Source: a virus. From it: DNA of 64,000 nt. Below are positions 16,182 through 40,100 of the stretch, one piece after another. Below the pieces are notes generated by a model. It saw only the letters and a program-made list of their open reading frames with translations, made no database searches and was not told the origin of the DNA. The stretch lies in the IMG/VR virus record IMGVR_UViG_3300008262_000008; one strand, given 5' to 3'. A program made the translations under genes and the position numbers. Every line of letters starts with the position of its first letter. The first letter of the stretch is position 1.

Positions 16182-19100
16182 TTATTCTTCATCTAGACCA
16201 AAATCACCAAATACATTACCAGTGCCTAATAATAAAGTTGAATTTGGTAATTCTACTGTAGCAGCAATTACTTCAGGGTCTCTATAACCATAACCACCAT
16301 CAACAAGATTGACCGATGATACACCTACTAATGCTTTTAATTGTCCATCAAATCCACCAGTTGAAGTTACAACAACTTCTGGTCTAGATGTGTATCCAGA
16401 TCCACCAGCACTAATTTGTGTTTCTGAAATTAGTCCCTTAGAAATTACTGCCGTTAATACTGCAGATTTACCATATACAGGTCCATCATAATTGTATGTC
16501 ACGAGAGAATTTGAAGATTCAATAACAGCAACTGTTCTGTCTTCTGTCTCACCCTCAATTGATAAAATATCATCAGTTTCAACTTCAGGAACTACAACAT
16601 CTTGTACAACGTCAGCATCAGAACCAATATATGCAAATCCAATAAATTGACTTCCAGTTCTAGGAACTTCAGTGAAATTAATTCTAGAACCACTTAAATC
16701 ATAACCTTCTCCAGCTTTTTGGATGACACCATTCATGGAAACAATGATATTATTATCAGGTTTTGTTAATGCAGAAGATCCCTCTGTAACTGTTAATGAG
16801 TAGAAAGAATTATTTCGCTTAAGGTTAAAGCTAGATCTTAATGAATCAAATTCAAACGAGATATCATCTAAAATTCTAAGCTTACCTAAGTAAGTTCCAA
16901 CGAAACTGGAACCGAATTGAGGAGCTTCGTAGAATGTAATTTTATCACTAAATGTAATGTAAGAAATGCCTGGTTGTTGTAAAATTCCATTAACAAATAT
17001 TAATACATAACCTTCAGTATTTGGGAAGTATTGTATTCCATTATTATATGTTAAATCAAATGTTGTTTGAACTCCATCAAAACCACGGAAATACCTATCT
17101 ACTTTACCAAGAACCTGGGTAGTTTTACTGTTATATGAAACATAACCACCACTAGATGTAATCCTACAATAATCATTAAAATTGCCCACTACTGAAGTTA
17201 AGAATAATTGTTTTGTTGAACCAACTAAAACAACCTTATTAATTGTTGCATATGAATATTGATTATTATATACTTCTTCTAGAGATACAATGGTTGCTTT
17301 TCCAATTACATTTTGAGTTGTAGTATTTTTATTTGCAATCAATGCTCCCTTATCAAAAGTTGTATATGTTATAGTTGAAGGAACATTTGCATAATCAGTA
17401 AGAATACTGATGTATAAATCAACTAAAGTATTGATGGTGCTTCTAACAGTAGCACAAGAATTAATATTATATGCTGTTGGATAAGCATCATCATATAACA
17501 CTTCATCATTAAATACTTGATCAACTGCTGCATAATAATTTGCTAACTCATGTCTAGCATTTTGATAGGATGTTGGTACTGGAATATTATTAATTACATA
17601 AGGTAGTAATGTTTTTAGATATGTTAAACCTGCAATACTTTGCGATTCTTCACCAGCAATTCCATTAGTAATGAAAGTGCCAGTCACTGCATCATAATAA
17701 TATAATGCACTATTCACAACTTTACTATTTCCACCGTATCTTACGTTATGAGCGATTGCATCAATCCAGTATTTAATATCTCTTTCACACTTGACTTCAT
17801 TTGTTGACCAAGTACCTACTGTCTCTGTAGGAACACTAGATGTATTTCCTGCATTAAGAGCAGTTGTCATAATCGCGGTAAGAGTAGTAATTGCACTTTG
17901 AACTTGTGTGCATGAAGATGAGTTTTGGTTTGAACCTGTTGTAGGATCTGCAGAAATTGTTAAATCCTGAACAGGAGTTAATCCTGTATATGTTCCAGTT
18001 GGTAAAGTATTAGTAATCGCTGCCTTCATCAAATCTCTTGCATAATTAAATGCTGCAACAGATTGCGTTACTTCTCCCGCTAAACCATTAGTTAGAAGGG
18101 TTGTAGCGTTGCTAAAGTAGTATAAAGTATTAGTTCTAGTATTTTGATTTCCTCCATCATACAGGTCATTAGCAACCCCTTTGATGAAGTATTCTAGATC
18201 TCTCTTACACTTGTTTTCACCTGTTGTCCAAGTTCCAACATTTCTCTTTGGTAGATTAATTAGACTACCATCTGTTAAAATGCCAGTAAGAATTGCAGTT
18301 AATGATGTAATAGCACTTTGGACGTTCGAACATGAATTTGTGTTAGTATTTGAACCTGTTGAAGGATCTGCGGTAATTGTTAAATCTGTAGTTGGTAAGT
18401 TGTTTGTTATAGCAAGTTTGCATAGATCTCTAACTTGATTAAATGCATAAATTGACTGAGTTAGTTCTCCTACTAATCCATTAGATAATAATCCACCCGT
18501 TGCTTGATCAAAGTATGCAATAGTTGCATCATAGATATTTGCATTACCACCATCATAAAGATCATTAGCAATCGCATCAATTACATAACCAAGATCTCTA
18601 CGACACTTAGTTTGATCATTATTGGGGAAAACAAATGTTGGATAGGCAGCAATTAAATTATTGATGGTAGTATCAATAATATACTGTCTATTTTTCTTGA
18701 TTAGAGTTCCAGCATCTTTAAATCTATTTACCGAAGAAGATGGTAACCAATAATCTTGTGATGTTGGTGTACCAGGATACATAAAGTCTGGATACGTTGC
18801 CTTAATATAACCAGTAGTTTCCTCAATGATATAATCACTGTTTGCATAAATTAAATTACTAGCATCCTTAAATCTACTTACAGATGAAGAAGGAGAATAA
18901 TCACTTTGCGATGCTGGGGTTCCTGGGAACTCAAAGTCTGGATATTGACTCTTAATATATCCACTAACTTCTTTTGCAATAAAATCTTTATTTGAGATTA
19001 AAAGATTTGATGCATCAATATGTGTTCCATCAATACCGATTTCAGTATTTGGTGAGTTGATAGGCAATACGGTATTTTGTGTGTCAGTATGATAGAACTC

Positions 19101-22100
19101 AACTCTTCTTGATAGTTTAGTAACAGTTCCATAATTTATTGTAGGACTGTCACCAACTACAATACTTCTAACTGCAAATAGTCTACCAGCAGTAATTTCA
19201 ACTAAATTATCTAGATTTAATACATTAGTAGTTGGATTCCAACTAGTAACATATGCATTTGCAACTTCTTGAGATTGACTATCTAACAATTTGACAAAAT
19301 CATTTTCTGCAAATGTTCCACTAATACCATTTTCAAAATAAGCTTCAGCATATTCAGTTTCATTAATACCAACAATAGTGCTTTCATCTCCAGTCTTAGT
19401 TTCTGAAATTTCATCAATTAGTGAAATACTATCTCCAATATCAAAATCTGCTAATGATTGATCAACATCAACCGTCATTTTATTAATTTTTCCTGAAATA
19501 ACAGTATCACCAGCTGTTAGTGATACTGTTTGACCCTCTTCAACTACTGTAATAATAACTTCATTATCCGAAGAATTAACTGTTTGTGATTCATAAAAAT
19601 AACCTTCGATATTTTCTGTGTCTAAAGTTAATTTTCCACCTGTGTTTGATATAATTGGGGCACTATTATATAATGATTGATCGAGAGTTGCATCTGCACC
19701 AGAAGTTAATCCAGTAAAATATTCACCGTCCTCAATCTGAGAACTAATATCAATTAATTTTAATCTATTAGTAGAACCGACTAATACGGTTGCAATAGAA
19801 CCACTTACATTACCTTCAATGATATCATCAACATCAAATGCACCAGATGTAATTATAACATCCAAGAATAGTGTATTATTTACTACTTCATAACCATAAA
19901 TTTCAGCAGTTCCAGATTGTGTAGTGTTTGTAATTTCTTCATTAGTGAACTCTGCCTCAACAGGACTATTTTCCACATCAAATTCTACAGGTATGCGAGT
20001 ATAAATTTTCTTAACCTTTGCGGTTCTTTCTATTATTGAAGTAACTTCTGCAATACTACCGCTAGATTGACCATATACATAATTTCCAAGAGTTATTCCA
20101 CCAATAACAGGATTTGGTAGTATACGAGTTCCATAATTAGGAGATGGTAGGGAAACACCATAAGTTTTTGTGACATTTAATGCCAAATACTGTGGAGATG
20201 ATAATGTTGAAGTTAATATTAAAGTTTCCGCAGTAACTTTAGTTGTTGGACCAGCACTAACCGAGATATTTGGATCTGTATATGCATAGAATGTTGTCAA
20301 TGGTGAAGGAGATACAAGTGTTTCATTAATTGCTGAAATTGTATAATCTCTAGCTTTGTTGTATGCAGCATTAGTAGCAGTAACATTTTTGTATATGAAT
20401 GATGTTACTGCAGTTCCTGACGAATTTAAATATGCTGATACATAATTCACTATTCCAGAATTTCCGTTAGTTAATAAATCATAAACTAAAGCATCAACAT
20501 AATCATCGAGTGCTGCTTTCGCGTTTGTAATTTCACTTGCAGATAAATTTAAAGTTGTATAAGTATTGGTAATAAATTTATGTGTTTCAGATACTATATA
20601 CTCCTTATTATAAAGAGCAAGTTTAGAAGCATCTTGATAGTTTTGTCCTGCTGGTCTCAAGAAAGCAATCATAATATCGTATAAAGTCGCAATAGCAGAC
20701 TTAACATTCGCACATCCACCAACATCATTTGTAATTGTATAATCTCTTACTGGATAACTTATTGGTGTTACAGTTTGATATTGTGCTGTATAAATTTCAT
20801 TATTAATTACTTTTTGTGCCAACTCTTTAATTTTTTGTAAAGTTACAATCGTAGGTAGTAACTCATTTTTGACTGAAGTAATTGATACTCCATCAGCAAG
20901 ATAGAATTTTAATCCATCAATAGTATAACCTTGTCCTCCAGTCAATAGATCTAAAATTACTGCATCGATTAGCAGTTTCATATCTCTTTCACACTTAGAT
21001 TGACCAGCAGCCCCGCTGGGGAATGTTAATGCATTATATTGAACATTATTTAACGTATATTTAAATTGACTGATTGTATATGCAACTGCTTCTTTAGCAA
21101 TAAAATCTCTATTGAACCAGAGTAAATTGCAAGCATCTCTATATCTTTGTGCTGTAGGAGCAAGAACATCATTAATAACACCCCATAGATAATCAATTCT
21201 TGAAGCAATAGCATCTGCATCAGATTCAATGTTAGTACCTAAGGTACTAATAGGTCTTTCTAAAGTAAATTGAGCATCATAATCAACTAATGTATTCAGT
21301 ACAGCTTTTTTGCAAAGATCTCTAACAAAGAAGTGTGCATGTAAACTTTGTAGAAGTTGACCAACTCCAAATTGCTGTGCTTCTCCTGGTTGATAAAGAT
21401 AACGAATTTGCTCGTTAGATGAAATATATGCTTTTGCAGCAGAAATTGAATAATAATCTCCACCAGAAGATAAATCTTGTGCAACTGCAGTAATTAATAA
21501 TTGCAAATCTCTTCTGCAAGTACTTGTTCCAGATAGGTTATTGCCAACATCTCCTGGTATTTGGAAATCTTCATAATAATATTTTAATTCATTCGATGCT
21601 TCTTCTGAAATAAACAATGAATTTTTCAAGATAACATCTGCAGCTTCTCTGTATGAATTTAAAGAACTATCAAATGCATCAGTGTAAACAATATTCTGAG
21701 CATTGATTACTTGCTTTGCCAGAATTGGAACAGTGATTTTTTCAGATACTTCTGCTGTAGTGTAACTAGTTGGTAAAATGATATTTGAGTTGTTAGTACC
21801 GTTAAAATTAAACAATACTAATGTATACGAGTCTTGAACAAACTCAGAAGAAGGTACTGCAAAATTATTAGTATATCTTGCATTTGTTGAAATGCGAAGA
21901 TCATCAATGTAACCAGTAAATCCTGTAGAAACGTTTTGGTATGAGTTGCCAATAGTCAAAGGTCTATTTGCGTAAGTGCGAGTATCGGAGAATGAAGTCG
22001 CAACACCAACACCGTTTACATAAATTTGAACTTGAGTGTTATTTTTAACAACTGCAACATGTGACCAACTATTGAGTGAAGCTGTAGCGGTGGTGGTCCA

Positions 22101-25100
22101 ATCTGTAGCATTATATCTAACAGTAATTGTGCCAGTAGAATTTCTTAATATAGTTAATGCACCTGCATCAGATCCACTATTTCTAAAGTCAAGGAACGTC
22201 TGAGTTGCCGCTGTAGTTGGATAAATCCAACATTCAGTTGTCCAATTTCCAGATCCAAGATTAAATTTTTCAGTATCATTAATATATACCCAATCACTAG
22301 AACCTAAGGTTCTTAATGATGCACTACCAAATTTAAAGAATGTAGTATTTAAACGAGATGTAGATCCATTGACATTAATTTTCCAGTTAGAAATAGTTTC
22401 CCCAAGTGTAAATGAACCTGTAATTGGTCCTGTATAAATTGTTCTAACTGAAGGATCACTATTTAATAGTGTAGTCTCTGCACCAGAAGTTAATCCATAA
22501 ATTTTGGATGATCCTCCGATTACTGGGAAGTATGTTAATCCGCTAATATTTTTATATGAAAGTTTGCTACTATATAAAGTTTCTCCTTCTGTAAAATTGC
22601 CTGTTTTACCATTTACTGATAGTTTGATAGATGTGATAGTTTCATCCATTTCAAAATTGTTAGCATTTAATGCTGTATATTCAATTACATTATCTTCAAT
22701 TGATTGATATTCAATAAAGTTTGTATTTACAGAAACAGTATCATCATTAATATCTACTAACTTAGCAGAAGATTCGCTAATATCATCAACTACAACGTTT
22801 GGATTTTCTGGATCGACAATTCTATTAAATACTAATCCATTAAATGTTGTTCCAGAATTAATTTGTAATGGTGCGCCATCATTAACTGGAATTCCAGTTA
22901 CAGGATCTCTGTATGCCCCAAGGGCAGTAATTTTTACAATTTGTCCACTGCTCTTTCCATAGATATAATCACCACTAACAAGAGCAAATAATCCATTTGG
23001 ATTTTGAGGTGTTCCTGTAATTTTACTTAATACAAGGCGATCATCAATTTGTCTAAATGATATTGGTAATCCTGTAGTGTTTAAACATGGTTTATTAACA
23101 ACAATTTCAGTGAAGCTAATAACCTCAACTACTTTTGTATCTTCATCAATTCCAGGTCCAGAAACTTCAGCACCGACAACAATTAAAGGTCTTGTAGGTG
23201 GATAAGATACATTAGGTAAAGTTTCTAATCCATTTGCTAATCCATTAGTTAGGATTGCCATAGATGTAGCAATTGCTGATGCTTGTGATGCACATGATGG
23301 ATTTGTATCATCATCTGGTACTCCTAGGTTGGGGAATGGAGCACCTACAGGTTGTGAAATTGGAGCACTATCAGTATAATACTTACCACTCTGCATAACA
23401 AAATCTAAATTGCCAGATCCTGATGGAACGGATGTTGTTAATTGTACTTTTGTGCTATCTATAATTTTAAATACCTTGGTATTATTTGGAATTCCAGTTC
23501 CAGTAACTGTCATTCCTTCAATTACATTAACGGTACTTTGATCAACTAGTGTAATTGTTGAAGTACCATTTCTAATAACATTTAATTTTACTTTCCAACT
23601 ACGCATTGCAGCAATAGCAAGATTTCTTGCATAATTGAATGCATCAATAGTTTCTTCTAATTGATTGTTAATATGAACAAGAGTTGATCCTCTATAATAT
23701 GCCTCAGTAGATTCAATAATTCTATAATTTCCACCATACTCTAAATCGTCAGCAATTGCAGAAATTACATATCCAATATCTCTTGCACAAGTTTGATCAC
23801 TTACAGGAATTACTAAGTCTGGATATTTTGCTTTCACATATCCTAAAGCTTCTTGAGCAATAAAGGTAGAATTTAATCTAAGACCATTAGCAGCATCTGC
23901 ATTAACACCATTTTGTCCAGTTACAATACCTGTAGTGGTTGAAGATGGAAGTTTAATAGTAGTTGAACCAAATCCTTGCTGTGTAGTTCCATTTTGTGCA
24001 ATATAAGTGATTGGTGTTGTACCATTAATTACACAAGGATCTAAAGCAAAAATAGTTACGTTACTGTCTTCAACAAGAGCATCCTTACCATTTAGATTTA
24101 ATACAGTTTCATCCTTGGTGAAAATAGTCGATGGATTTGTAACATCTGACCAATTACCAGGATTTCTTAGTGGAAGAGAACTTAGATTTGCTTGCTGAAT
24201 ACAAGTTGTTAAAATTGTTACTAGAGTAGAAAGTGAATTTCTTACGTCTGTGCAACCAAAAGGATTGGTATTTGAAGAATTTCCTTGTTCTGGTGAAGGA
24301 TCTGCAATAATACTTAGATCTTTAACTGTTAATTGATTATTTGCAGCTTGACCTGCCCAATAAGCAACTTTTTGGAAACCGTAAATACTCTGTACTTCTT
24401 CTCCAACTAATCCATTTGCAAGAGGACTACCATCAGCAGTAAAGTAATACTTAGTATTATCCCAAATATTTGAATTACCGCCACTAGAAATATCTGCTGC
24501 TAAAGCAGTTGTAATATAACCCATGTCTCTCTTGCACTTCAATTCTCCAGGAGAATAAGGAGAATTACTAATAATTGTTCCAGGTAGTCCATTCAAGTTG
24601 CCATTTGTAAGAGCAGTAGTTAGATACAATGACAATGTAGTAATTGTACTTCTAACATTAGCACATGAAGTTGCACTAGTATTTGATCCTGTCGCAGGAT
24701 CAGCAGTGATATTAAGATCCTTAAATCCTAACTGATTAGTAACAGCTTGGATCATTAGATCTCTAGCTTGATTAAATGCATAGACTGATTGAGTTTGCTC
24801 ACCTAATACACCATTAGTAATTAATGCACCCTGAGATGTAAAGTATGCCTTAATAGCAGTGATAGTATTGATATTGTTACCATCGTATAAATCTTGAGAA
24901 ATAGCATCTACAATATAACCAATATCTCTCTTACATTTTGCTTTTGCTGCAAGCACTGATGGACTTTGTAGTTCTGGTAATGCAGTAAGTGTTCCCGCTT
25001 GTAAAGTGCTTGTCAAAATTAATACTAAAGTACTAATTGTTGATTGTACATCAGTACATGCATTTGGATTTCCAGATTGCAAATTAGATTCTAATACGTC

Positions 25101-28100
25101 CCCAACTCCTTCTACAGCTGGACCTGCAGAAATTGAAAGATCTTTATTATACAGTTGATTAGTTGCTGCTTTCTTCATCATGTCACGAGCCATATTGAAG
25201 GCAACTACAGATTGATCAACTTCTCCATTTACACCATTACTAATTAATGTAGTTCCTGCAGTATTAAAGTATGCTTTAGTTGCAGTGATTGTTGAAGCAT
25301 TTCCACCAATTCCAATGTCACTTGCAATAGCATCAACAATATAACCAATGTCTCTACGGCACTTATTTTCACCAGTATTAAATGAACTTGTTCCTTCTGA
25401 TGGCAGTGTAGCAACACTTGAAGTGGAAATTGCAGTTGTGACAATAGCAGTTAGAGTGTCAATTGCTGTTCTAACATTAGCACAAGAATTTGGACTTACA
25501 TTACTTTGAGTTAAAGGATCTTCAGTTAAAGTTAAATCTTTAGTGTATAGTTGATTAGTTACCGCCTTCTTCATCATATCACGAGCCATGTTGAAGGATA
25601 CTACAGATTGTGCAGTTTCTCCGACTAGTCCATTTGAAATAGGAGTTCCTTTGTTGAAATATTGTAAAACAAACTTTCTACTATACTTATTGTTCTCTAA
25701 GAATACATCTAGAGAAATAGCATCAATGAAATACTTAATGTCTCTTAGGCACTTAGATTTGCCAGCTACATATGATCCAGAATTTTCCGTAGGTAAACTT
25801 TCAATTCCTCCAGTTCCAAATACAGTAGTTATGACACCAATTAATGTATCAATCGCACTTTGAACGTTTGCACAAGAATCAATACTTACATTACTGTTTG
25901 TTGCACTATCCGCAGTTAAAGTTAAATCTTTTACATATAATTGATTAGTTACCGCTTTCTTCATCATATTACGAGCCTGGTTAAATGCTGAAATTGATTG
26001 TGCATATTCACCAAGTAGTCCATTTGTTAATGGTTGACCATTAACAAAATATTGCTGTGCAAATTTTCTAGTATACTTGTTTCCAAGCATGAATACATCT
26101 AGAGATACTGCATCTACCAAGTAACCAAGATCTCTACGACACTTCAATTCATTAGTCTGATATGAACCAGCATTTTCGATTGGTAGTAGATTTAAATCTC
26201 TAGCAATTAATGTTGTTGTAATTAGATTGGTTAAATTGTCGATTGATGTTCTAACATTTGCACATGATTGTGGAGATTGATTTGAACCGATTAATGGATC
26301 TGGGGTTAAACTTAAATCTTTCACATATAATTGATTAGTAATAGCTGATTTCATCATATCACGAGCCATATTGAAAGCAACTATTGCTTGATCTTCTTCA
26401 TCTTGAATACCATTTGTTATAGGTGTGGTTGTAGCTGAGAAATACTGCTCTACAAATTTTCTACTATATTTGTTTCCTTCTAAGAAAATATCTAAAGAAA
26501 CAGCATCGATAAAGTGACCAATATCTCTACGGCACTTTAATTCATTAACATTATATTGACCAGCATTTTCAGATGGTAGACTACTAATTGATCCACTACC
26601 CAACGCAGTAGTTGCGATTAAAGATAGGTTATCAATTAGTGTTCTTACATTAGCGCATGAGTTTGTATTTGTATTTGATCCTGTGTCTGGGTCTGGTGTT
26701 ATAGTTAAATCTTTAATAGTTAGTTGATTAGTTAATGCCCTCTTCATCAGAGTTCTAGCCTGATTGAATGCTTCAACAGAAGCTAACTCCTCTCCAACTA
26801 AACCATTAATAATTGGAACACCATTATTAAAGTACTGTAGAACAAATTGTCTTGTATATTTATTTCCTTCTAAGAACACATCTAGAGAAACAGCATCAAC
26901 AAAATAACCAATATCTCTCTTGCACTTCAACTCTGTTGCCGCAGCTGCAGGATATACATTTAACATGTTATTCCATGCAGTCAGTACAATTTCTGTCTTG
27001 TTTAGTTGAATTAAACGATATGCATCATTAAATCTACTATGAGTATCACTTCTGGTATCACCTGGGAAATAGAAATCTTCAAACTGGACTGCAATCTCTG
27101 CCAGAGATCTATCTGCAATTTCGTCTCTATTTTGCTGAATTAGACGATAAGCATCATTAAATCTACTTGAAGAATTAGATTGAGGATCTCCAGGAAATAC
27201 AAAATCTGGGTGCTCAATTGCTACTTGAGCAAGAGATTTATCTAAAATTTCATCTTTATTCTGTTGGATTAGACGATAAGCATCATTAAATCTACTTTGA
27301 GCATCTGTTGTTTGATCACCAGGGAATACAAAATCAGGATATTGAGTAGCAATCTCTGCAATAGATCTATCTGCAATTTCATCTCTATTCTGTTGAATTA
27401 GACGATAGGCATCATTAAATCTACTATGAGTATCTGATTGTACATCTCCTGGATAATAAAAATCTGGATATTGAACAGCAATTTCAGCAAGGGATCTATC
27501 AAGAATTTCTGCTCTATTTGCAAGAATTAAGTTCTTAGCATCTAGATATCTATTTGAAACTAGTGGTTCAATTCCAACAGTTGAACCTGGATCAGCACCA
27601 AAAGTAAATGTTGGGAATTGTGTTTGAATTCTTGCAGATGCAGTATCAATAATTTCTTGGCGATTTGCTTGGATTAAACGATAACCATCTTTAAATCTAT
27701 AAGAATTGGTAGGAGCTCCTGGATATACAAAGTCTGGATAGTTTGCAAAAATATAGGATTGTTGATCAGCAAATGCCTCCTTAACAACCTCATCTTTGTT
27801 TGCAACAATTAGTTCACTTGCATTTCTGTATCTTCCGATTGATGGATGATTAAGATTTTGAATTCTTGAAATAGTTGCGATTAATCCAGTAGATGAAGCT
27901 CTGATTTCTTCTAATTCAATAAATTCATCATAACCTGTTTGAGTGCTTGGAACATAATTACTTACTGTTAGTTTAGTAATACCATTTAAGTTTGTAATTG
28001 TGTGATCGGTTGTCTTTCCAAGTCTATTAGTTCCTAGTGTAGTAATATCAATTCCAACTCCACCTAAAGCATTTGCATAAGTATTTGCTAGTTTAATTCT

Positions 28101-31100
28101 AGATTCATCCACTCTGATTACATATAAGGTAATGTTGCCAGCTGGAATAGGATCTAGAGGAATTACACCTACAGGTACTGTATAACGAACTTCTGTGCCT
28201 GTAACAAATGAGTGCTTTCCAATAGTAATTGTATTGCTTAAAATATCAACAACTTGGGATGAAGATCCATCAAATGAAACTGATGGTAAGACACTTTCAG
28301 AACTAATTACTGAAGCTCTAACTTTTGAAGTTTGACCAACAATAGTACGTCCTAAATCAGGAATAACCCCTGCAATATTCTCAATCCAAATTTCGGATTG
28401 GAATACCTTATCAATTTCAATCTGAACGTATTTTACAGTTGTCGCAGGTTGTGGAGGATCTGAAAATACAATACCTTGAACAGTTTTGGTAATTGTTTGA
28501 TTGGGATTATCAGGATCAGGTTCTGTAATTTGTAGACCATTAACAATTGTATATGCTTTTCCAGGAGCTTGAACAATTCCATTTAAACTAATCAAAAGTT
28601 TATCAGCACTAACAATTGAATTTGTACCATTAATTGTTAATGGGAATGCAGTTCTAGTTCCATCAAATAAACTAGAAATATCATCAAATTCTTGAACAGT
28701 TGAAGTAATAATTTGTTCAGATGAAGTAAGTCTCTTACTTCTGAATATAACAACCGAATTGTCAAATTCACTATATCTTGGTTCTACAATAGCAAATGAT
28801 TCTACAGTATTGAGGTCTGCAATTTCACCAACACTTACACTTCTAGTAACTTCAATTGAAGGATCATTTTTTCTAGTTTCTTGTACACTATCTAAGACTA
28901 GTTCTCCAAAAACTTGGAATCCAGCTGGATGAGTGTTTTTCTTTATGCTATCTCTCCACTTAGAAATTACAACTTTACTCTTAATAGCATAGGAGAAATT
29001 TTGATAATAATAACTATCTTGTAATCTTTGAATAATTTCACTTGGTTTTCCAGTATCATCTGCAAATTTTCCAGATGTTTGTGTTACCGCATTGATATTT
29101 AAAACACCTCTAGCTCTAGAGATATTATCAATAATTCCACTAGACTTCGATACTAATCCTGTTACTTTTTGCCCTTCAATGAATTCACCGCTATAATTTT
29201 CTAACTTTAGAAGTCTTGGACCAGTTTGCCAACCATTATTTTTAGATACATATCCAAATGCAGTTTGTTCAGATAATGAATTGCCCTGATATACATATTC
29301 ATCAGATAAAAATCTAGCTGTTTCAACTATAGCTTCTGCTGTTCCACCAAAACTTTCTGTGAATATAATTAATCTTCCATTTCCACTATTAATTAATGTA
29401 ATTGCATCTCCAATTTCAGCTCCTTGTGGAGTTAATGCTATTTTTAGTTGATCTGCATCTAAAGAATTTTCAGATCCTGCAATTGCATAATATGTCTGAG
29501 TTGTAGATAATCTACCAAAACTTGATAATGGCAATTCTGGAGTTCCAATAGTTGTAGTTCCTTCAACGGCAGCAAAAGATATTTCTGCACCATTTGGAAT
29601 TCCATGAGGTGATGAGAATTGTAAGTAATTTAGATCAACGTTAACTACAAATGTGAAAGAAGATTTAAGTGCAACATCTGGAGCTGATGAATATCCAGTT
29701 CCAGGATTCTTGATTTCAATTGCAGAAATTCTGCCATTTTTAATAACAGCTTCAGCTTCTGCTCCCACTCCTCCACCACCTGTAATAATAACAGCAGGTG
29801 CAACAGTATATCCACTACCAGGGTCAGTTACATTGATTGATCTTAAAATACTTGTATTTAATAACTGTAAGTTTACAGGGAAGTTAATCTCTGGTTTTAA
29901 TGTATAATCATGAGAGTAATCAAATCCAAAGTTATTATTTTTTAATTTTTTAATTTTTCCAATATTAGTACCCTTCAAATATAATGAAGATCCCGATCCT
30001 CTAGGTGGAATAATTACATTAATTTTTCCACCACCACCTTGTAATTGTGGTCCTAAAATACCATCAATACCTTCAATATCAATTGATCCAAATGTATAAC
30101 CTTTTCCAGCACTAGTTAAAGATGCTGAGGTGATCTTACCAGTTTCATTTCCAGGTTCTCCTTCCAAGGTAACTTCAAGTTCAATAAATCCACCAACTCC
30201 GTCACCAATAATAGGAATCTTTGTATATACACCAGGTTCATATTCAGTTCCTTGATTTTCAATTTGTATTCTTTCAATGGTTCTTACTGCGCTAATATCT
30301 GTAACGACTGGTAATTTCTTATAAAATCCTCCAGGACTTACAAATTCAATATCTGCAATTGGACCATCAGCTGTTGTTGAAGTAGTGACATATGAAGTAT
30401 TTTCTGCAATAGCAGGACCTTCTGGTTCAAAAGGTAATTCAATCGAGAATTTATAATCACCACTGGTAACAGTTCCACCAGAAGTAGAATAAACTTTAAA
30501 TTTGCCTGCATATGGAGTTGATCTCACAATTGCATATGCATTTTCAGTAACTGGAGATTCATCTCCCAGGTGTGAAGGATCAAAATAATATGTAATACTA
30601 GACGCTAAGTTATCCACTTTAAAGGTCACTTTTGGTGAACTTCCAGCAGCATCAATACCAGGAGTTCCAATTCTAATAATATTGTTGAATGAATATTCAA
30701 TTCTGTTTAAACTATCTCTTGAGAAAGATAGGAAATAACCTAAATTTGATGGATGACTTAAATCGAAGTTGTATTGATGACCATAGATAAAATTAAGTAC
30801 AGGAGACTTTGCGTAAATAATAATTCCACTAGCAGCTGCAGGATTAGATGTTGCATCTGCTGGTAAATTAAATGTGAAACTTCTACTTGAAATAATATCA
30901 TTAACTGAAAAACTTCCATCATATTCACTTGGAGAACCTACGCTCCCATTACCTTCAATAAAGATAATATTATCTCTATTCAAATAGTGTGCTGTTTGAG
31001 TACCAACATAAACTTGATTAGTAGCAGAAATTCCAGATGGAATAATTCTAATAATTTTATCTACAGTTGTAATAACTGTGATGTTCTTAACAAGTCCTAA

Positions 31101-34100
31101 TCCAGATATAGTTAAAGTTGTTTTTTCTGTACCAGCAGGACTGGTATTCAATGAAATCTGAGTTACATCTAGAGAAATTAGAGAATTTTTAAAGTAATTA
31201 GATGTTGTTTGAGTTCCAATATATTCCCAAGTTATAGTGCCATCAGCAGCAGTACCTGATACATGTGTTGGAGCAGTAGATCCTGATGTTCCAGATACTG
31301 TAGAGCGATATACTAGTCCAGTAGTAGTATTCTTAACATACTGATCTGCCGAATAAGATGTATTACCAGTCCAATTTGTTACACTGTATAATTCATTAAT
31401 TAAAATATAATAAATTCCTTCAGCAAAATCCTTAAATCTTGCAGCATCATCATTTGGAATTTTTAGAGTAAATGTTCCTGCAGTACCAACTCCAGGAGTT
31501 ACTGTTGTTGTTGCAGAAGTGGTTGTTAAACTCCAAAATACGGTTGATTGATTTGCAACTTCATATACTCTTTCTCCTGCAACAAATAGACCATTGTAAT
31601 TTTCAACAACTAGTGTCCTTGTTCCAGAGTTCCAAGAAGTAACTACAGCGGTCGATCCGCTGGTAGCACCTTTTACCTTGTTACCAACAGTAAAGTCACC
31701 AGTTCCACCTGCTTGGAAATTTAGTTGCGTTTTAAAACTATAAAGTCTATATTCTTTAATTTCATTTACATCATTAATATTATCTGAAACTAACTCTGAT
31801 AACTCAGTTATAGTTGTTTGATCACTAAAATTAGTTGCATCAGTATTATATGCTACGTACACATACTTATTTACAGTATCTACTTTTGTAATAACTGCAT
31901 TCTGAGTTTTTAATCCAGTTGCATATACCTTTTCAGAAATAGTTGCACCTGGAGTAAAGTTTGCAGATTGATTTAATGTAAATCTCTTAACATTTCTAAA
32001 TTTGGTTGGAATAGTATTTCTAATATAAAATTTACTACCTTTCTTACAATTAACTTTTAACTTAATACCACCTGGGGTAGGAATAGTAGCAGTTCTAGAT
32101 GCCCAAGTATTTACTGATGATGAGCAAGTTACATAGTCTGATTGTAAATTTGAATTTAATTCATTAAAGTCAAGAATAGTTGCGTTATCAACTCCAGGAA
32201 TATAATCCTGTATATCAATTGAAGTATCTTGAACTGTGGATTGAGACCACGCAGAAGCACTACTGTAAATATAATTGTAGGTATAACTTACAGTAGTTAC
32301 TGTAGCAGTTCCACTAGGTCCAGTAATAGTCATTCCTGGATAGATTATTGCGCTAGGTGAAGTTAATGTAAGTGTTAACACTGCTCCAACACCAAATCCC
32401 GATAAACTATACGCTGACACTGCAGCTGATCCACCTGTATATGTAATAGTTTGGTTGTTGGCAAAGGATCCAGAAACAATAGTTGCAACAATATTTGCAA
32501 AAGTACTGTTGTAATTACCTAATTTATTTGCTTCTCTATTTTTATCAATTTTAATTAAAATTCCTTCTTTTGGTACAATAATTCCAGAGGAAAATTGATT
32601 GACTGTTGCTGTTACTTGTTGTCCAGTTAATGATGATCCAGTATATCTTGCATATGGAGAAAGTCTAAATTCATCCACATATCCATTTAGAGGTTGAGTT
32701 GCTCCATTAGCAGATCCGATATAAATTGGATTTGGAGTCGATACAGTAGTTGCAGTAGATGAGTTAATAATTCTAACACCATTTAGATATACATAATAAT
32801 TTAAATTTTCTTTAACTAATGCAATATGATGCCATGTATCAGATGTAAATGCGTTGGATGAAGAATTGCCTAAATTTTCGGCACTTCCTGTTCCTCTAAG
32901 TTGTAAATTAATAACTCCTGTTGCACGAGTATATCTTAGAGTAATATGGTTTGTAGATCCAACATTACCACATGAGAAAAGAACTGGAGTAGTGCCTCCT
33001 GTAGATCCAGATCTGAAAAATCCCTCCAGAGTAAAATTGGTATTTGACATTAAATTGCCAATCGGCGTTGATGCTGCAGGAATTGAGAATGCATCTGTAG
33101 AACCACTTGGAATGTAAAGAGATGCAGTTCCATGCTTAAATTCTGCAGTACTAATTGTAGATGCTCCTCCGAAGGTAACACCGTTTCTCTTATTGAAACT
33201 TGAGTCTACTACAGAAGTGGAACCATTTACACCATCAAAATGATATAGTATGAAAGTATCTGAATTATAAGCACTATATCCAGATACTAAAGTATCTCCC
33301 GATGCATCTCCATGAACAGATGTTGGATAGAATGAAAATCCTTTTGTTGTAGAGCTATTAGCATTTTCCGAAGCAAATAATTTACTATTTGAAACTAAAT
33401 CTCCATCATAACTCAATTTAATTTGATATGAATATACTTCACTATCTGTAGTAACACTTGTTAAAATTTGTATTTGTCCAAAAATATCAATATTTGATGA
33501 AACATATCTTGTCTCTACTGCTGCAACATCCGTACATGAGAATGCTTTATGCCATCTTAAAGTTATAGTATCATATCCTGTATTGGGATATTCTATTTCA
33601 TTTGCATTAATAGACATTACTGCAAATTGAGATGCTCCACTGTAATTATAAGTGATGATAATATCATCAAATTCATTAATTCTAAGGGATACATCACTGA
33701 CATCACTAACACAAGTAATATCCTTTATGAAATGTAAATCAATTGCTCGTGTACTTTCATTCCAACTTGCCTTGCCATAAAGTATATTAGTTGGAGCATT
33801 TGGAGTTATAATATCCAAAACTTCTCCAGTAAAATGAATATTGTCTTTGCTATCTATAGCAATAGATGTAATTTTTTCACTATATCCACCAAGAGAAATT
33901 TTTCTTCTCTTAATAACATCTCCATCATTTCTTAAGAATACAAGATAAGCATCCTGTGGAGATACTGAATTAGTATTTGTATATCCTGCAACGAATAAAT
34001 CACCATTTTTATCTGCAGCAATTCCAGTGATTGTATCTTGCCTAATAGCACCGCTAACACCAGATATTTCTTTTTGCCAAGTTAATGTGCATACAAGACC

Positions 34101-37100
34101 AGTAGAATTTTCAGTGTACTTTGCAATCACAATATCTGGATTAAATTGTGTTGTAGTATTTGGTTTTGTTTGACCAACTACAAAAATTTCTTGTCCTTTA
34201 ACAATAATTTTTTGGAAATCAGCATAACGTAAACCTTGACCTGGATATGGAGATGATAAACTCTTTTGCCAAATTAAAGTGCCACTATCATTGTATTTTG
34301 CCATGATAGCAACAATATTTCCATTAGAATCTGCTGCCTTACCACAAATATAATAATATTTTTCTGAAGTTCCAAATATATCATTAATTACGACATTATT
34401 ATATTGTGTCCAGTGTTTCGCAAAGAAATAATTAGTTTTCTTGTAAATCTGTGGGTGTGAAATTATTAATCTAGGATCAAAAGTATATGAATTACCAGAA
34501 TTAATAATATTAACTTTTTCAATTACTCCTGTAGATTGCAATACTGGTTCTACAATTGCATCAGAACCATCTCCAGAAATTTCAATAGATGGAGGAATGT
34601 CAGAATTATAACCAGTACCAGGTTGTACAATGTCTAATTTTTCAATACCATCAATAACTCTCACTTTATAATCCTTTTGATTTTGGATCATAATAGGTGT
34701 AGTATCAACAAAAACAGTATCTCCAACTTGTAAATTATGTTCTAAATTAGTTGAAGTACCACCATCATTTTCAGTACAAGTAATTGTTCCGATTGGAGTA
34801 TCTCCATCAGATCCACCCAAAGCAAAAGTATATGCACTGATCGTTTTTCCTTCCACTTTAGAAATACGAGCAGAAACTCCATACCCATCAGTATCAGTTT
34901 CATCAAATACTAATTTGTCTCCTACCTTGTAATTATTTCCAGCATTTTCAATTACATAACCATCAATTTTTGCGGATTCAAATTTAGTAGTAGTATCAAT
35001 TTCAATATCTACTCTAGATTCTTCTCTAACTGATGGGAAATAGTCATATAAACCAATTACATCTTCTTGTCTATAAGATGGAATTGCATCAGATAATTCT
35101 GCAATAGTGTCTCCAAGAAGTGCATTTGATAAACCAAAAGTAATTCTATCACCAGGTTCTAAGATACCTATATCAGATAGATATACCCAATTAACACCTC
35201 CATCATTATAACCAGATCTTACTGTTGGTTGACTAGCACCAGAAATTGCAGTATTAGAACATCTATATAATTTACCAGTATTAAATCCGTCTCCATCCGA
35301 ATATACTATTTGCCCTGCGGTGTATTGTGTATTTGGTTCCCAACGACCTGCCTCTTTAGTATATGCATAATATCTTAAAGATATAGTATTTTCGATTGGA
35401 TCATATAAATTAACTATTGCTTTAATTTGTCTACTTAATGTAGTACCAATTGTTCTCGTTGAAGTAATTATACTATTTTCAGTAAAATTACCAACAACAT
35501 TAGCTAATTCATATGCAATATTAATAAATCCACTTTGATCACTATCTTCTACTTCAAATGTTAAAAGTTCCCCATCTTCAGTAATATAATCCCCAACAAT
35601 ACCAAATGTTGTTCTGTCTAAATCAGTATCAACATTTTCAAAAGGATCCCTAAATCTTACAACGTCTAGTGGGAGATATGCTTGAATTGAATCTGCAGAT
35701 AAATTCCAAGCATCAACTTGAGAATAATATTTTGGACCAATAACATATGGGAAAGTAGGAATACCTTGCAAATTATCTAGATTTGTAGTATCTTCTACTA
35801 TAGTTACAAAGTATGCATATGTTCCTTCTGGGAATTCTGGGGTTTTGCAAAATCTTCCGTTATATTCATCTAAGGTTCCCAAATTATAAGAGAATTCATA
35901 ATCTTGGATAAATGATCCAGCTGGATATTCCGAGAGAAGTGGTCCGTCAATTCTTTCTGGAGAAGAAGATGTTAGGCTATCTAGCAACTTGTAACTAGAT
36001 ACCATTCTTTCAATAATACTCTTATCATCTGTAGGGTCGGAATAACCATATGGTCCATAAATCGGACTACCATCATAAGCCCAACCTAAGATAGGAGAAT
36101 GTACTAAACCTTCAATTTTTTCTGCTACTTGTCCATTTCTAATTTCTAAGTTATCTCCTAAAACATATCTCAATTGTCTTGGGTCAGACAAATGAGCATA
36201 ATCTCCACCAAATTGATTATTTAATCCAGAGAACACATATCCTCTAGATGCATCTAGTTGCTTTTCAAATGCATAGTTGAATATCCATTCAAATACCTTA
36301 CATTCAAATCTTGCACCAGATCCAACAGATTTTAGAACAATTTGAGTTGATCCTTGATTATAATTAATACCTCTGTTTAAAATTTCAATATTCAGAACTT
36401 TACCAATAGAATCTCCAGAAGTCGAAATAATTGCTCTTGCCTTAGCACCAAAACCATCTCCATAAATTTCAACTTCTGGTGGAGAAGTATATCCAATACC
36501 AGCATTAATAACCGCAATAGATACAATTCTACCATTATTAACAATAGCTAATGCTTCAGCACCTCTTCCACTAGAAACTTCAATGGTTGGTGCTGCAATA
36601 TATCCTTCTCCATAATTAGTGACATTAATATTTTGAATTGGTCCCCTAACTGAAGCATATGCTGAAGCACCATCGCCACCGCCACCAGAAATACTAATAG
36701 TTGGAGTTGAAGTATAACCTTCTCCACCAAAATCAACAAGAATTTTACTTAGTTTATTGTTAGTAATAACTGCAGTAGCGGATGCACCTGATCCACCTCC
36801 TCCAACGATTGAAATTAGAGGTTGGGAAGTATATCCATCTCCAGCATTTTCAACAATAATTTCCGTAATAGAACCATTTACAACAACATCAGCAGCTGCG
36901 CCTGATCCACCACCGCCAGTAAATACAATATTTGGTGGATTTCCTGCATCATAACCACCACCATTATCCAAAATTTTAATATCACTTAGTTTACCATATT
37001 TTAATGATTCGCTGGATTTATAGTTCCAAACAGATACTCCATTAATCCAAGAACCTACTGCTCCTGGAGCAGTATCAGTCTTAACTGAAATTGTGTTCTG

Positions 37101-40100
37101 TGTTCTTGGGAATCTCTTTAAATATCTTTGATTACCTGGAAGAAGTGCCGTACCAACAAAGGGTCCAATCTTATAACTTGGAATTCCTGTAGAAGCTACA
37201 TAAACATAATTATCATTAAAATATACGTTTTGTACGTTGCTTGTATAAAGTTGAACAGAATTGTTAATTGAAATGTTATCGCTCTTACCTTTATTAAGAT
37301 CAATTGATACTAATAGTTTTCCAACAGGTAATGTATTAGGATCTCCACTTGCAGGTAATGTATATGTAAATGTAGTATCTGAAATAGATGTTACAGTATA
37401 TGTCCCATTATATAAAATAGGAGCTGCTCCATAAATTGTAACTTGATCACCAACTAAAAGACCATGTTTTCTAGTTGTTGTAACTTTTGCTGTTGTATAC
37501 CCAATACCTTCAGGAACAATACTAGATGCTTCAATTAGTTTTTTAACATTATATAACCATGTATTAATAAGAGTATCTGTTGTTGTTGCTCCAATTTTAG
37601 TGATATTTAATTTATCCCCAGAAAGATAATATCTTCCAGTATCAACAAGTTCAGTACTACCAGCCTCAACAATTCCATAAATTTTCAAAACTACTTCTTG
37701 TTGAGTTCCTTTATTTGCATAAACAAAGAAATTAGATTGCACAGAAGAAGCAGCTTGATGTTCATCTGCTAATCCATTTAATCCTCTGGTACATTCTAAA
37801 AATTGATTTAGTGTTTTTTCTTTATATGAAATTAATTCTCCATTGATTAGAATTTGACCATTCTTTTCGGGCCATCCAATAGTAGAATCTACAGTAATTA
37901 CACTATCTGTAGTAGTAATTTTTTCACTAAGTTTGGTAGTGTATGGAACTACAAAATTTCCAACTAAAGATTCTTTAGAAATTACAAGTTCAATGACACT
38001 ACTATCAACTACATTAATATTAATATAATTTTCTACTAATGCTGCAGCATATTGAACATTAGTATCGATTGGATCCTCAAGTTGTTCAATTAGAGCATCT
38101 TTTAAATTTTCTATCTGACCAGATATCAAATTTACACGAACAACAGTATCCACAGACCATGTAGCTGCAGATGGTTTAATAATCTGGTCTTTTGGATAAG
38201 AAACATCAATTTTTTCATTAAAAAGAATTCTGAAAAAATATGAAATAGAATTTTTTGTACCTTTAGAAGAATAAAACTCTTTGATAGTTTTAATAAACTG
38301 TGGTACACTAATTGTTGAAAAGTCTAATGTTGGGAAATATGGAGCAAATTCCTCAATAAATTTTTGAATAATTCTTCTATAGAATAAAGTATCTAAACTT
38401 TTTACTTCAGTACCTGCTTTATGAGTTGCTGCTAAAGATTGTTTTTCAGATTTAAATAACGCATTTCCTTTTGCATCATAATCATATATGCCACTGACGC
38501 CTCTCTTACAATTTACCAATTTTGATTTAGTGTACTCTGTACCCTTCTCAATAACTCTAAAACCTGTAATTTCATCAAAACCAATATCACAAGATGCCTT
38601 TGCAAATGGAGGCGCTGCGATTACGACAGTTGGTGGATTGAATGGATCATATCCTTCACCAAAATTAGTAATATTAATATCTGTAATTACACCATTAAAT
38701 ACTGTTGCTTCTGCGGTTGCATTTACTAAAGTTTTATCTCGTAGAGCAAATCCATTATCTCCAATTCTTGTATCTACAATATACACACTTGGAGGAACTT
38801 CATATCCAGATCCTCCACTTAATAGTTGTATTTGCGTTACTTGACCATCAGAGTTGACAATAACATCAAGTACTTGAGCACCTACAGGATCAATAATTTC
38901 AACTCTTGGTGGATTTGTATCACTATATTCTCTACCACCAGATACAACGTTTACTCCAATAACTTCGCCTTCAGTATTTAAAGTTGTGGTTAAAATTGCT
39001 TTTACTCCAGAAGAAGTTCCTGGAGCATCAACATAAACTTTTGGTGGTGTAGTATAGTTAGCACCTGAAGAACTTAAAGTTACAGATGTAATAGATCCAT
39101 TAGTAACAGTAACTGTATCAACTCTAGCTCCACCAGGATTTACAAAAGATAATCTAGGAATATTAATGTAACCACTTCCACTTTCGGTAATTAGAATATT
39201 GCTAACTTTTCCTTCATTATTTACTATTGCTTTTGCTTTTGCGGCAATTCCATTTTCAGGAGCTTCAATTACAATTTTTGGGGGGTTTGTAGATTCATAT
39301 CCTTGCCCTGGATCGAGTAAATTAATGGATTTTACTCCACCAATCAATGCCAGTGCTGTTCCACCTTTTCCTGAAGAAGATTCTATTGTAACTTTAGGTG
39401 TAAATTTAGACGTATAACCAGATCCGCCAGAAGTAACATTAATATTTTCTAGTTCACCAAAATCATTAATTACTGAAATTGCAGAAGCACCACTTCCTGT
39501 AGATTGAATTAATTGCTCACTTTCAACATAGGTCATCCAAAAATCAGCACCAGCTGCAGGAGCTTGCTTAAAGATAATAGTAGATCCTTGGATAGTAAAT
39601 CCATCCTCTTCCTGAGAATATGCAGTTAAAAGCTTTTTCCCAACAGATACGTTTGCAAAAATATCACTTACAGGAACATAAGGTTGATTATTTAATTTTA
39701 ATTCAAACAAAGTTTTGACACCATTAAATTGAGATTTAATGTCATCTATAAACACAACTTCATCTAAACTATATCCTTTCAAATAGAAAATAGAACATGT
39801 GGAAGAATCATCATTTAATTGTCTTGCTCTCGGTGCGGTTGCAAAAACAATAGTATCACCTACAACTGTAAAATCAATTCCTGGCTTCAAATATTCATTA
39901 TATACTTTTACAATTAAATGATATGCAGATGTTGGGGTAACTGTTAAACCAGAAGAAACTAAATTAAAAATTGTTGTGGTGCCATCATACAAGAAAAATG
40001 CATTAGCACATTCTTGCCACTTATTTCTATATTCAGTTAAACTTAAAGAATCTGATAGTACTACTTTTGGTGATTTTTGCACACCGCTATAATAAATGAC

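What the first reader, a model, noticed from the sequence alone, without database searches (positions are those of the whole stretch)
24150..27840. Nested A7-B7 repeat architecture: a self-inserted (matryoshka) domain rod in the giant virion protein
Seen: four places in this protein carry one intact module, a short helix unit A (e.g. ADAANGLRLNSTFIAQEALGYVKAKYPD) joined directly to a ~130-aa unit B (TCARDIGYVISAIADDL...SCA), at about 23880, 21660, 21140 and 20640. Here the two halves are amplified separately and in equal number: 7 A units (43 aa), then 7 B units. Similarity is mirror-symmetric about the junction. The last four A units are near-identical (all SRFNDAYRLIQ) and the first four B units form one subtype (A(V/I)SLD(V/I)F..(G/N)NKY), while the outer three A and outer three B units are divergent. 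Inference: pairing is nested (A7-B1, A6-B2 ... A1-B7), with each domain inserted in the A/B loop of the previous one. The chain would run out and back as a rigid hairpin stalk, possibly stapled by the two Cys per B unit. Streptococcal antigen I/II (A and P repeats pairing into a stalk) is a known conceptual analogue. I am not aware of this being described for phage baseplate proteins. Growing such an array requires self-insertion or coordinated duplication at two distant sites.
Basis: partly seen in the sequence, partly recalled or inferred. Interest (0 to 1): 0.85.

Follow-up and report, generated by a model that had tools for sequence, protein, structure and literature searches.

The report
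Seven nested phycobiliprotein-like domains in baseplate protein
A giant baseplate protein of a cyanobacterial virus contains seven copies of the host's pigment-protein fold inserted one inside another like Russian dolls, which is deeper than any domain nesting I found in the literature, and each copy keeps the pigment-attachment residues, so whether the virus particle carries pigment can now be tested.

Summary
Residues 4192-5421 of an 8,074-residue ORF at the gp7 position hold 7 A units followed by 7 B units.

A and B are the two halves of one phycobiliprotein-type globin domain. A holds helices A and B. B holds helices E to H and starts at the bilin-site motif K-C-x-R-D-x-G-Y. The split lies where ApcE carries its PB-loop.

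Nested pairing is supported in four ways:
- Across 203 homologous sequences, unit strings follow a balanced-bracket grammar. 129 parse exactly, and almost none are expected by chance. Nest depths range from 2 to 7.
- In both AlphaFold models the innermost A and first B form a phycobiliprotein fold (Z 16-17), and an outer A forms a globin-like domain with the outermost B.
- A-unit and B-unit similarities are mirror-congruent (p=0.037).
- Trees place the extra layers in the middle of the array.

The middle layers of the 6-deep model are low-confidence, and its register is one unit off.

The Cys-staple idea is not supported. The two Cys sit at positions corresponding to the beta-84 and beta-155 bilin sites.

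I found no paper describing this. Other agents of this scan reported the same architecture in at least 15 other cyanophage genomes.

The parts
16182..40406 (-). Giant ORF of 8,074 aa (P0001) at the gp7 (baseplate wedge) position of a T4-like cyanophage
   Evidence: It is the only long ORF here. It lies between a gp6-like gene (40419-42434) and a gp8-like gene (12627-16148). Pfam finds Baseplate_wedge, YHYH, Laminin_G_3 and Phycobilisome. Homologues are annotated baseplate wedge initiator or short tail fibre.
26934..27833 (-). A array: seven two-helix half-domains A1-A7 (aa 4192-4491), equivalent to phycobiliprotein helices A and B
   Evidence: Unit calls are. The array alone scores 43.6 bits on PF00502 (cut-off 22.2), matching profile positions 33-70. 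A 129-bp tandem repeat of 4 copies is seen at DNA level.
24144..26933 (-). B array: seven four-helix half-domains B1-B7 (aa 4492-5421), equivalent to helices E, F, G and H. Each starts with K-C-x-R-D and has a second Cys at the start of helix H.
   Evidence: Unit calls are. Invariant K3, C4, R6, D7 and C93 appear in all 10 B units of the window. The motif aligns with Cys84-Arg86-Asp87 of C-phycocyanin alpha.
26544..27035 (-). Innermost complete domain A7+B1 (aa 4458-4621), contiguous in sequence
   Evidence: In the AF2 model this is residues 220-375. It matches phycoerythrin 5aqd_M at Z 16.1 (rmsd 2.0, 138 aa) and the ApcE bilin domain 4xxi_A at Z 14.4 (rmsd 2.0, 116 aa).
17337..19016 (-). Second, independent nest A3B3 (aa 7131-7690), outside the reported coordinates
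   Evidence: Unit calls are. The AF2 model has pLDDT 77.9 and pTM 0.69. a3+b1 matches phycobiliprotein beta chains at Z 15-17. A haemoglobin aligns 129 residues over model range 1..546, which is a1 plus b3.
23172..23897 (-). Single AB module M1 (aa 5504-5745), with a beta-rich insert of about 75 aa in the G-H loop
   Evidence: and the sequence read.
20166..21653 (-). Three tandem single AB modules M2, M3 and M4 (aa 6252-6747). M4 lacks the Cys of C-x-R-D.

Best explanation
The A unit (two helices) and the B unit (four helices) are the N- and C-terminal halves of one phycobiliprotein-type globin domain. The domain is cut at the loop between helices B and E, the place where ApcE carries its PB-loop. 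In the A7B7 stretch, seven such domains sit one inside another. Each domain is inserted in the B/E loop of the one outside it. The chain therefore runs outward through A1-A7, turns at the A7|B1 junction, and returns through B1-B7. A7 completes B1, A6 completes B2, and so on to A1 with B7. The result should be an out-and-back stalk of seven globin-like domains, with both ends of the chain at its base, projecting from the baseplate protein. From domain size I estimate a length of very roughly 20-30 nm. Shown here: the unit counts, the fold of the innermost domain, the long-range pairing of an outer A with the outermost B in the models, and the nesting grammar in homologues. Inferred: the exact register of the middle layers, the rod shape and its rigidity, and pairing within one chain rather than between chains. 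The extra layers of this phage were added in the middle of an older 3-4-deep nest. Every B unit keeps the Cys-x-Arg-Asp bilin-site motif and a second Cys at a position corresponding to beta-155. Bilin binding is therefore possible but untested.
For: Fold:
- Pfam PF00502 matches (E 2.8e-14). The A array alone scores 43.6 bits against a cut-off of 22.2.
- A profile of 44 innermost modules hits 125 PDB sequences. The best 60 are all phycobiliproteins, the best at 8.6e-6. K-C-x-R-D-x-G-Y aligns on K-C84-A-R-D-I-G-Y-Y.
- The AF2 innermost domains match phycobiliprotein beta chains at Z 15-17 and the ApcE bilin domain at Z 13.7-14.4 with rmsd 2.0.

Each B unit lacks helices A and B, and each A unit supplies exactly those.

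Grammar:
- With separate HMMs for A, for helices E-G and for helix H, 129 of 203 homologous sequences (21 of 52 distinct strings) parse exactly as D -> A S n S c. After shuffling, 0.03 strings are expected to parse.
- With two symbols, 27 of 46 strings are balanced and nested, against 4.6 expected.
- Nest depths of 2, 3, 4, 5, 6 and 7 occur, always with equal numbers of A and B.
- Failures are almost all one short unit missing.

Models:
- A3B3 has pLDDT 77.9 and pTM 0.69. A haemoglobin aligns 129 of 141 residues over model range 1..546, which is a1 plus b3.
- In the A2-B6 model, four globins plus two unrelated helical proteins align 100-133 residues over 47-63..1033-1040, which is A3 plus B6, about 870 residues apart in sequence.

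Evolution:
- Mirror congruence of the A and B identity matrices is r=0.59, p=0.037. The orthologue P0002 gives r=0.73, p=0.015. The collinear pairing gives r about 0.08 and -0.26.
- B1-B4 form a lineage-specific clade. A4-A6 cluster together. A7 groups with the innermost A of all other nests.
Against: - The 6-deep AF2 model is weak (pLDDT 65.1, pTM 0.57). A2, A4, B2 and B3 are below 50, and confidence follows alignment coverage.
- In that model B6 pairs with A3, not with A2 as strict nesting predicts. This mirrors how the alignment rows were placed, so the register of the middle layers is unresolved.
- I had no coordinates. Pairings are read from the first and last aligned residues of structural alignments with Z of only 6-7.
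- Mirror similarity is modest. In 4-deep nests of other phages it beats the collinear pairing in only 12 of 18 cases.
- A balanced count alone is also compatible with other pairing orders. Only the n...c splits, the direct A7|B1 junction and the models favour nesting.
- Nothing here distinguishes pairing within one chain from pairing between neighbouring chains.
Confidence: 0.8

Rival explanations
1. Domain-swapped pairing between chains. Only the innermost A7-B1 pair forms within a chain. The outer A units of one gp7 copy complete the outer B units of a neighbouring copy, building a multi-chain fibre rather than a single-chain hairpin.
For: Equal A and B counts and the bracket grammar fit this as well. 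Baseplate proteins occur in multiple copies, which is established for T4 gp7. Natural phycobiliproteins always pair with a second subunit. In the A3B3 model the second helix of a2 lies where the X/Y helices of phycobiliproteins lie.
Against: Monomer AF2 models pair an outer A with the outermost B within one chain. The disordered linkers of 13-20 residues between A units are long enough for a return path within the chain. Split B units (n...c) that enclose whole sub-nests look like ordinary domain insertions within one chain.
Confidence: 0.1
2. A and B fold independently. The A array is a separate helical-hairpin spacer or solenoid, the B units are truncated four-helix domains like beads on a string, and the equal numbers are a historical accident.
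For: 43-residue two-helix repeats resemble solenoid repeats. Only the A array is a tandem repeat at DNA level. The middle A and B units are low-confidence in the deep model.
Against: A aligns to phycobiliprotein helices A and B, and B aligns to helices E-H of the same fold. Single AB modules form a complete globin fold. Equal numbers hold at depths 2-7 across many homologues. The linkers between A units are long, Pro/Gly-rich and predicted disordered, unlike solenoid turns.
Confidence: 0.05
3. One reading: the two conserved Cys of each B unit form a disulfide that staples the stalk.
For: Both Cys are highly conserved (C4 in 100% and C94 in 93% of 615 B units). Virions are extracellular.
Against: The first Cys aligns with bilin site Cys84 and comes with its partners Arg and Asp. 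By alignment end-points the second Cys falls at about residue 154-157 of beta chains. That is the beta-153/155/158 bilin site at the start of helix H (my arithmetic). In phycobiliproteins these two sites are far apart (my knowledge). I could not measure the distance because no coordinates were available.
Confidence: 0.1

Closest known systems
Phycobiliprotein alpha/beta subunits (Pfam PF00502: CpcA/B, CpeA/B, ApcA/B)
   Same: Same globin-type fold for helices A, B, E, F, G and H (Z 15-17). A sequence profile match. The Cys84-x-Arg-Asp motif is kept, and a second Cys lies at about the beta-155 position.
   Different: There are no N-terminal X/Y helices. The G-H loop is long and Thr/Ser/Asn-rich. 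The domains are part of a virion baseplate protein rather than a free 17-kDa subunit. They are nested or tandem within one chain. Bilin binding and trimer formation are unknown.
ApcE (core-membrane linker) alpha-APC domain with its PB-loop (PDB 4XXI; PMC11789067)
   Same: It is a phycobiliprotein domain that tolerates an insertion of 50-70 residues. Its numbering gap falls at the same place as the A|B junction. It matches both models at Z 13.7-14.4 with rmsd 2.0 A. The domain still folds and binds bilin when the loop is deleted.
   Different: The ApcE insert is a flexible loop, not further copies of the same domain, and it is only one level deep.
Si3 insertion of cyanobacterial RNA polymerase beta' (RpoC2): recursively nested hybrid-motif domains (PMC10895346, PMC13114784)
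   Same: One fold is inserted recursively into itself, with forks where one host domain carries two inserts. A 2026 survey of 2.7 million domains singled it out as a six-level nest.
   Different: It has a beta-sandwich fold and a different protein and function. Its depth is 6, against 7 here.
Streptococcal antigen I/II stalk (A and P regions)
   Same: An N-terminal repeat region runs out and a C-terminal repeat region runs back to form a stalk.
   Different: There a long alpha-helix winds with a polyproline helix. Here discrete globin domains are each completed by a distant half. The two are not homologous.
T4 gp7 baseplate wedge protein
   Same: The gene lies between gp6- and gp8-like genes. 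Pfam Baseplate_wedge matches at aa 685-742.
   Different: It is eight times longer, and T4 gp7 has no phycobiliprotein-like domains (my knowledge).

Membership tests
Phycobiliprotein (PF00502) | Globin-type fold with helices A, B, E, F, G and H | tested here: met
   AF2 innermost domains match phycoerythrin and phycocyanin beta chains at Z 15-17, with rmsd 2.0-2.2 A over 133-142 residues for several chains.
Phycobiliprotein (PF00502) | Sequence match over Pfam's gathering score | tested here: met
   The C-terminal half of the protein scores 53.8 bits and the A array alone 43.6 bits, against a cut-off of 22.2. A single module alone reaches only 14.6 bits. A profile of 44 modules hits phycobiliproteins in PDB at 8.6e-6.
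Phycobiliprotein (PF00502) | Bilin-site Cys84 with Arg86 and Asp87 on helix E | tested here: met
   K-C-x-R-D aligns on K-C-A-R-D of C-phycocyanin alpha. In 615 B units, Cys is present in 100%, Asp in 100% and Arg in 92%. This set was selected by HMM hits, so the figures are biased upward.
Phycobiliprotein (PF00502) | N-terminal X/Y helices that make the alpha-beta heterodimer | tested here: not met
   HMM alignments start at phycobiliprotein residue 39 and Pfam position 33. The A unit has only two helices.
Phycobiliprotein (PF00502) | Covalently bound bilin chromophore | not testable with these tools
   This needs expression with bilin synthesis genes, or virion spectroscopy.
Recursively self-nested domain insertion (Si3-like architecture) | A complete copy of a fold lies inside a loop of another copy, repeatedly | tested here: met
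   The three-symbol grammar parses 129 of 203 sequences. A7B7 and A3B3 in the window parse. AF2 pairs the innermost units and an outer A with the outermost B. The middle layers are not confidently modelled.
Antigen I/II-type stalk | Alpha-helical A region intertwined with a polyproline P region | tested here: not met
   The B units are four-helix half-globins, not polyproline repeats.
T4-type gp7 baseplate wedge protein | Position between gp6 and gp8 and a baseplate wedge domain | tested here: met
   The neighbours match PHROG baseplate wedge families. PF23786 matches at aa 685-742 with E 5.4e-12.

The most novel reading that the evidence does not exclude
The nested domains bind bilins made by phage enzymes (Ho1, PebS, PcyA) and attached by the phage lyase CpeT or autocatalytically. 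The baseplate would then carry stalks with up to 14 chromophore-bearing domains per gp7 copy. These would act as a virion photoreceptor and account for light-dependent adsorption of cyanomyoviruses.
Probability: 0.25. Interest if true: 0.95.

Novelty: new variant of a known kind. Interest (0 to 1): 0.8.

Why it matters
Architecture. A 2026 survey of 2.7 million domains singled out a six-level nest in cyanobacterial RNA polymerase (PMC13114784). Seven levels of one fold nested in itself would be deeper than that. The family also shows nests of depth 2-7, forks and a second insertion site. That makes it a natural system for studying how proteins grow by recursive insertion, and how two distant repeat arrays stay equal in number.

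Biology. The fold is the host's light-harvesting pigment fold with the pigment-binding residues intact, and it sits in the infection machinery of the virion. The role of cyanophage bilin-synthesis genes has been called a mystery (PMC3037559). Light-dependent adsorption has been ascribed to unknown light-induced changes in receptors or tail fibres, independent of host photosynthesis (PMC6628666). These domains are a concrete, testable candidate for both.

Tried and rejected
- Complex prediction with A1-A3 (aa 4189-4328) against B5-B7 (aa 5013-5421) gave no verdict. The score was 0.00, it was folded without alignments, and the partner's own fold was uncertain. It says nothing either way.
- Megablast of the region against isolated phages found no match.
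- A single-sequence search of PDB gave only noise. A profile of B units alone against PDB gave no hits. Only profiles that include the A unit reach phycobiliproteins.
- Foldseek on the whole A3B3 model gave no row with E below 0.001, although phycobiliproteins dominated the list.
- My first HMM iteration, which used envelope coordinates, let the B model swallow A units and had to be discarded.
- Automatic three-symbol parsing from one B model, with thresholds on HMM end-points, was too noisy. I replaced it with separate HMMs.
A viral-contig scan found no close orthologue with A7B7. The deep model therefore had only one full-length alignment partner.
- No whole genome is held for this window, so I could not ask whether this phage itself has cpeT, ho1 or pebS.
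- P0064 and P0110 looked like counter-examples with many B units and few A units. By eye each B unit there is preceded by a diverged A-like helix pair, so they are tandem (AB)n arrays.
Full report
WHAT IS THERE. The finding lies inside a single 8,074-codon ORF on the minus strand (window 16182-40406). Its neighbours match gp6-like, gp25/53-like, PAAR, gp5-like and gp8-like baseplate families, so the ORF sits at the gp7 position. Its N-terminal part carries a Pfam Baseplate_wedge match. tblastn of an internal piece hits 320 phage records, all cyanophages of Synechococcus or Prochlorococcus. The gp6 of this phage is only 48% identical to the nearest isolate. This is therefore a divergent T4-like cyanomyovirus.

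THE OBSERVATION. Motif and HMM scans confirm seven A units (aa 4192-4491) followed without a break by seven B units (aa 4492-5421). The overall unit string is A7B7, AB, ABABAB, A3B3.
- A4-A7 share RFNDAYRLIQ.
- B1-B4 are 57-62% identical to each other and 34-52% identical to B5-B7.

WHAT THE MODULE IS. Pfam reports Phycobilisome protein (PF00502) on this half of the protein (E 2.8e-14). The A array alone scores 43.6 bits against a cut-off of 22.2, matching profile positions 33-70. A profile of six modules, and then of 44 innermost modules from related phages, was searched against PDB sequences. It returned almost only phycobiliproteins: 125 hits, the best 60 all phycobiliproteins, the best at 8.6e-6. 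The start of B, K-C-x-R-D-x-G-Y, aligns on K-C84-A-R-D-I-G-Y-Y of C-phycocyanin alpha.

AlphaFold models agree. The innermost contiguous A+B of both models matches phycobiliprotein beta chains at Z 15-17. It matches the bilin-binding domain of ApcE at Z 13.7-14.4 with rmsd 2.0 A. The secondary structure shows two helices per A unit and four per B unit. A therefore corresponds to helices A and B, and B to helices E, F, G and H. The N-terminal X/Y helices of true phycobiliproteins are absent.

The A|B cut falls where the numbering gap of the loop-deleted ApcE crystal construct lies. That is the site of the 50-70-residue PB-loop, which can be deleted without loss of folding or bilin attachment (PMC11789067). 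That the loop lies between helices B and E is my own knowledge.

Among 615 distinct B units, the first Cys and the Asp are present in 100%, the Arg in 92% and the second Cys in 93%. From the end-points of the structural alignments, the second Cys falls at about residue 154-157 of beta chains. That is the beta-153/155/158 bilin site at the start of helix H (my arithmetic).

IS THE PAIRING NESTED? Four lines of evidence bear on this.

(1) Logic of the fold. Every B unit lacks helices A and B, and every A unit is exactly those helices. A7 is joined to B1 by a few residues, as in the single modules, so that pair is fixed. The next A units are tethered by disordered linkers of 13-20 residues that can reach only the next domain along.

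(2) Comparative grammar. I built HMMs for the units and scanned 121 homologous giant proteins and 96 loci from viral contigs.
- The unit strings look like balanced brackets. 27 of 46 distinct two-symbol strings are properly nested, against 4.6 expected after shuffling. They cover 163 of 203 sequences.
- I then used three separate HMMs: A; n for helices E-G; c for helix H. With these, 129 of 203 sequences (21 of 52 distinct strings) parse exactly under D -> A S n S c. After shuffling, 0.03 strings are expected to parse.
- There is therefore a second insertion site, the G-H loop. Split B units enclose complete sub-nests, for example A n [AABB] c in 45 sequences. In the S-RSM4 type the string is A A n [A A A A B B B n [A B] c] c B: a four-deep nest whose outermost domain carries an AB module in its own G-H loop.
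- Depths of 2, 3, 4, 5, 6 and 7 occur, as do forks such as A A A [A B][A A A B B B] B B B.
- Failures are nearly all one short unit missing. Two apparent exceptions are tandem (AB)n arrays with diverged A helices.

(3) Models.
- The independent A3B3 nest, folded with a 27-row alignment of real 3-deep nests, gave pLDDT 77.9 and pTM 0.69. Besides the a3+b1 domain, a haemoglobin aligned 129 of its 141 residues over model range 1..546. That can only be a1 plus b3.
- The A2-B6 construct (1,057 aa) gave pLDDT 65.1 and pTM 0.57. It was confident only where alignment rows covered it.
- In that model, four globins plus two unrelated helical proteins aligned 100-133 residues over 47-63..1033-1040. That is A3 plus B6, which are about 870 residues apart.
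- This is the long-range antiparallel pairing that nesting predicts. The register is one unit off strict nesting, which would pair A2 with B6. The offset copies the way MAFFT laid the 4-deep rows on the query.
- I had no coordinates, so these pairings rest on alignment ranges.

(4) Evolution.
- The identity matrices of A and B units correlate under mirror pairing (r=0.59, exact p=0.037; orthologue P0002 r=0.73, p=0.015). They do not correlate under collinear pairing.
- Power is low in 4-deep nests, where mirror beats collinear in 12 of 18.
- In trees, B1-B4 form a clade private to this lineage, A4-A6 cluster together, A7 groups with the innermost truncated A of every other nest, and A3 and B5 group with the outermost units of shallower nests.
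- The extra layers were therefore added in the middle, in equal numbers on both sides.

WHAT IS NOT SETTLED.
- The register of the middle layers.
- Whether the stalk is rigid.
- Whether the outer pairs form within one chain or between neighbouring gp7 copies.
- How the two sides stay balanced. Forked nests are what a tandem duplication spanning the centre would give. Pure deepening needs either an insertion of an AB copy at the junction or two matched duplications.

A complex prediction of the outer A units with the outer B units returned no verdict.

COMPARISON AND NOVELTY.
- The fold is that of phycobiliproteins, and sequence homology is supported. The domains lack the X/Y helices, and nothing is known about pigment.
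- The insertion site has a precedent in ApcE.
- Recursive self-nesting has a precedent in the Si3 insertion of cyanobacterial RNA polymerase. A 2026 survey of 2.7 million domains singled this out as a six-level nest (PMC13114784).
- Antigen I/II is only an analogy.
- Full-text searches for cyanophage with PF00502, and for phycobiliprotein-like domains in cyanophage virions, found nothing.
- Other agents of this scan have reported the same architecture in at least 15 other cyanophage genomes. Two first-reader notes cover this same stretch. I treated those as leads and tested the claims here.

WHY IT MATTERS. Beyond the architecture, these are pigment-protein domains with intact attachment motifs in the adsorption apparatus. 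The role of phage bilin genes is unexplained (PMC3037559). Light-dependent adsorption is attributed to unknown light-induced changes in receptors or fibres (PMC6628666). CpeT is encoded in 4 of 5 long viral records that carry nests, and in 3 of 3 that are near-complete. I had no negative set, and CpeT is common in cyanomyoviruses anyway. Pigment on the virion remains a hypothesis, which I put at about 0.25.

Noticed in passing
window 17337-19016 (aa 7131-7690): A second, independent nest A3B3 lies near the C-terminus of the same protein. It gave the best AF2 model.
   Followed up: yes
P0019 (S-RSM4), P0071-type, L006-type homologues: The G-H loop is a second insertion site. B units are split into an E-G part and a helix-H part that enclose whole sub-nests, giving tree-like (forked) architectures.
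   Followed up: yes
P0064 (6,611 aa) and P0110 (4,684 aa): These are long tandem (AB)n arrays of the same module, with about 34 and 17 copies. P0110 has a period of only 108 aa and no detectable helix H, so it may be a truncated form of the fold.
   Followed up: partly
window 23172-23897 (aa 5504-5745): Single module M1 carries a beta-rich insert of about 75 residues between helix G and helix H. It is a foreign domain at the same second insertion site.
   Followed up: no
window 20166-20639 (aa 6590-6747): Module M4 has lost the Cys of C-x-R-D (it reads N-A-K-A-A-L-D-D). Not all 14 modules could bind bilin at the first site.
   Followed up: no
window 27005-27518: Only the inner A units form a DNA-level tandem repeat (129 bp, 4.0 copies, 76% matches). 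The B units do not. The A side may be more recently duplicated, or homogenised by gene conversion.
   Followed up: partly
window 27843-40406 (aa 1-4188): The N-terminal half holds YHYH (aa 1400-1536), Laminin_G_3 (aa 2446-2587; a second copy at about aa 6035-6177) and a beta-propeller repeat. It also holds many short repeats with a G-G-S-G-Y-type motif (about aa 320-600 and 1130-1330, seen by eye).
   Followed up: no
L005, L010, L063, L032 (IMG/VR records): CpeT-family genes (PF06206) are present in 4 of 5 long viral records that carry nested modules. Two of the records have two or more CpeT-like matches.
   Followed up: partly
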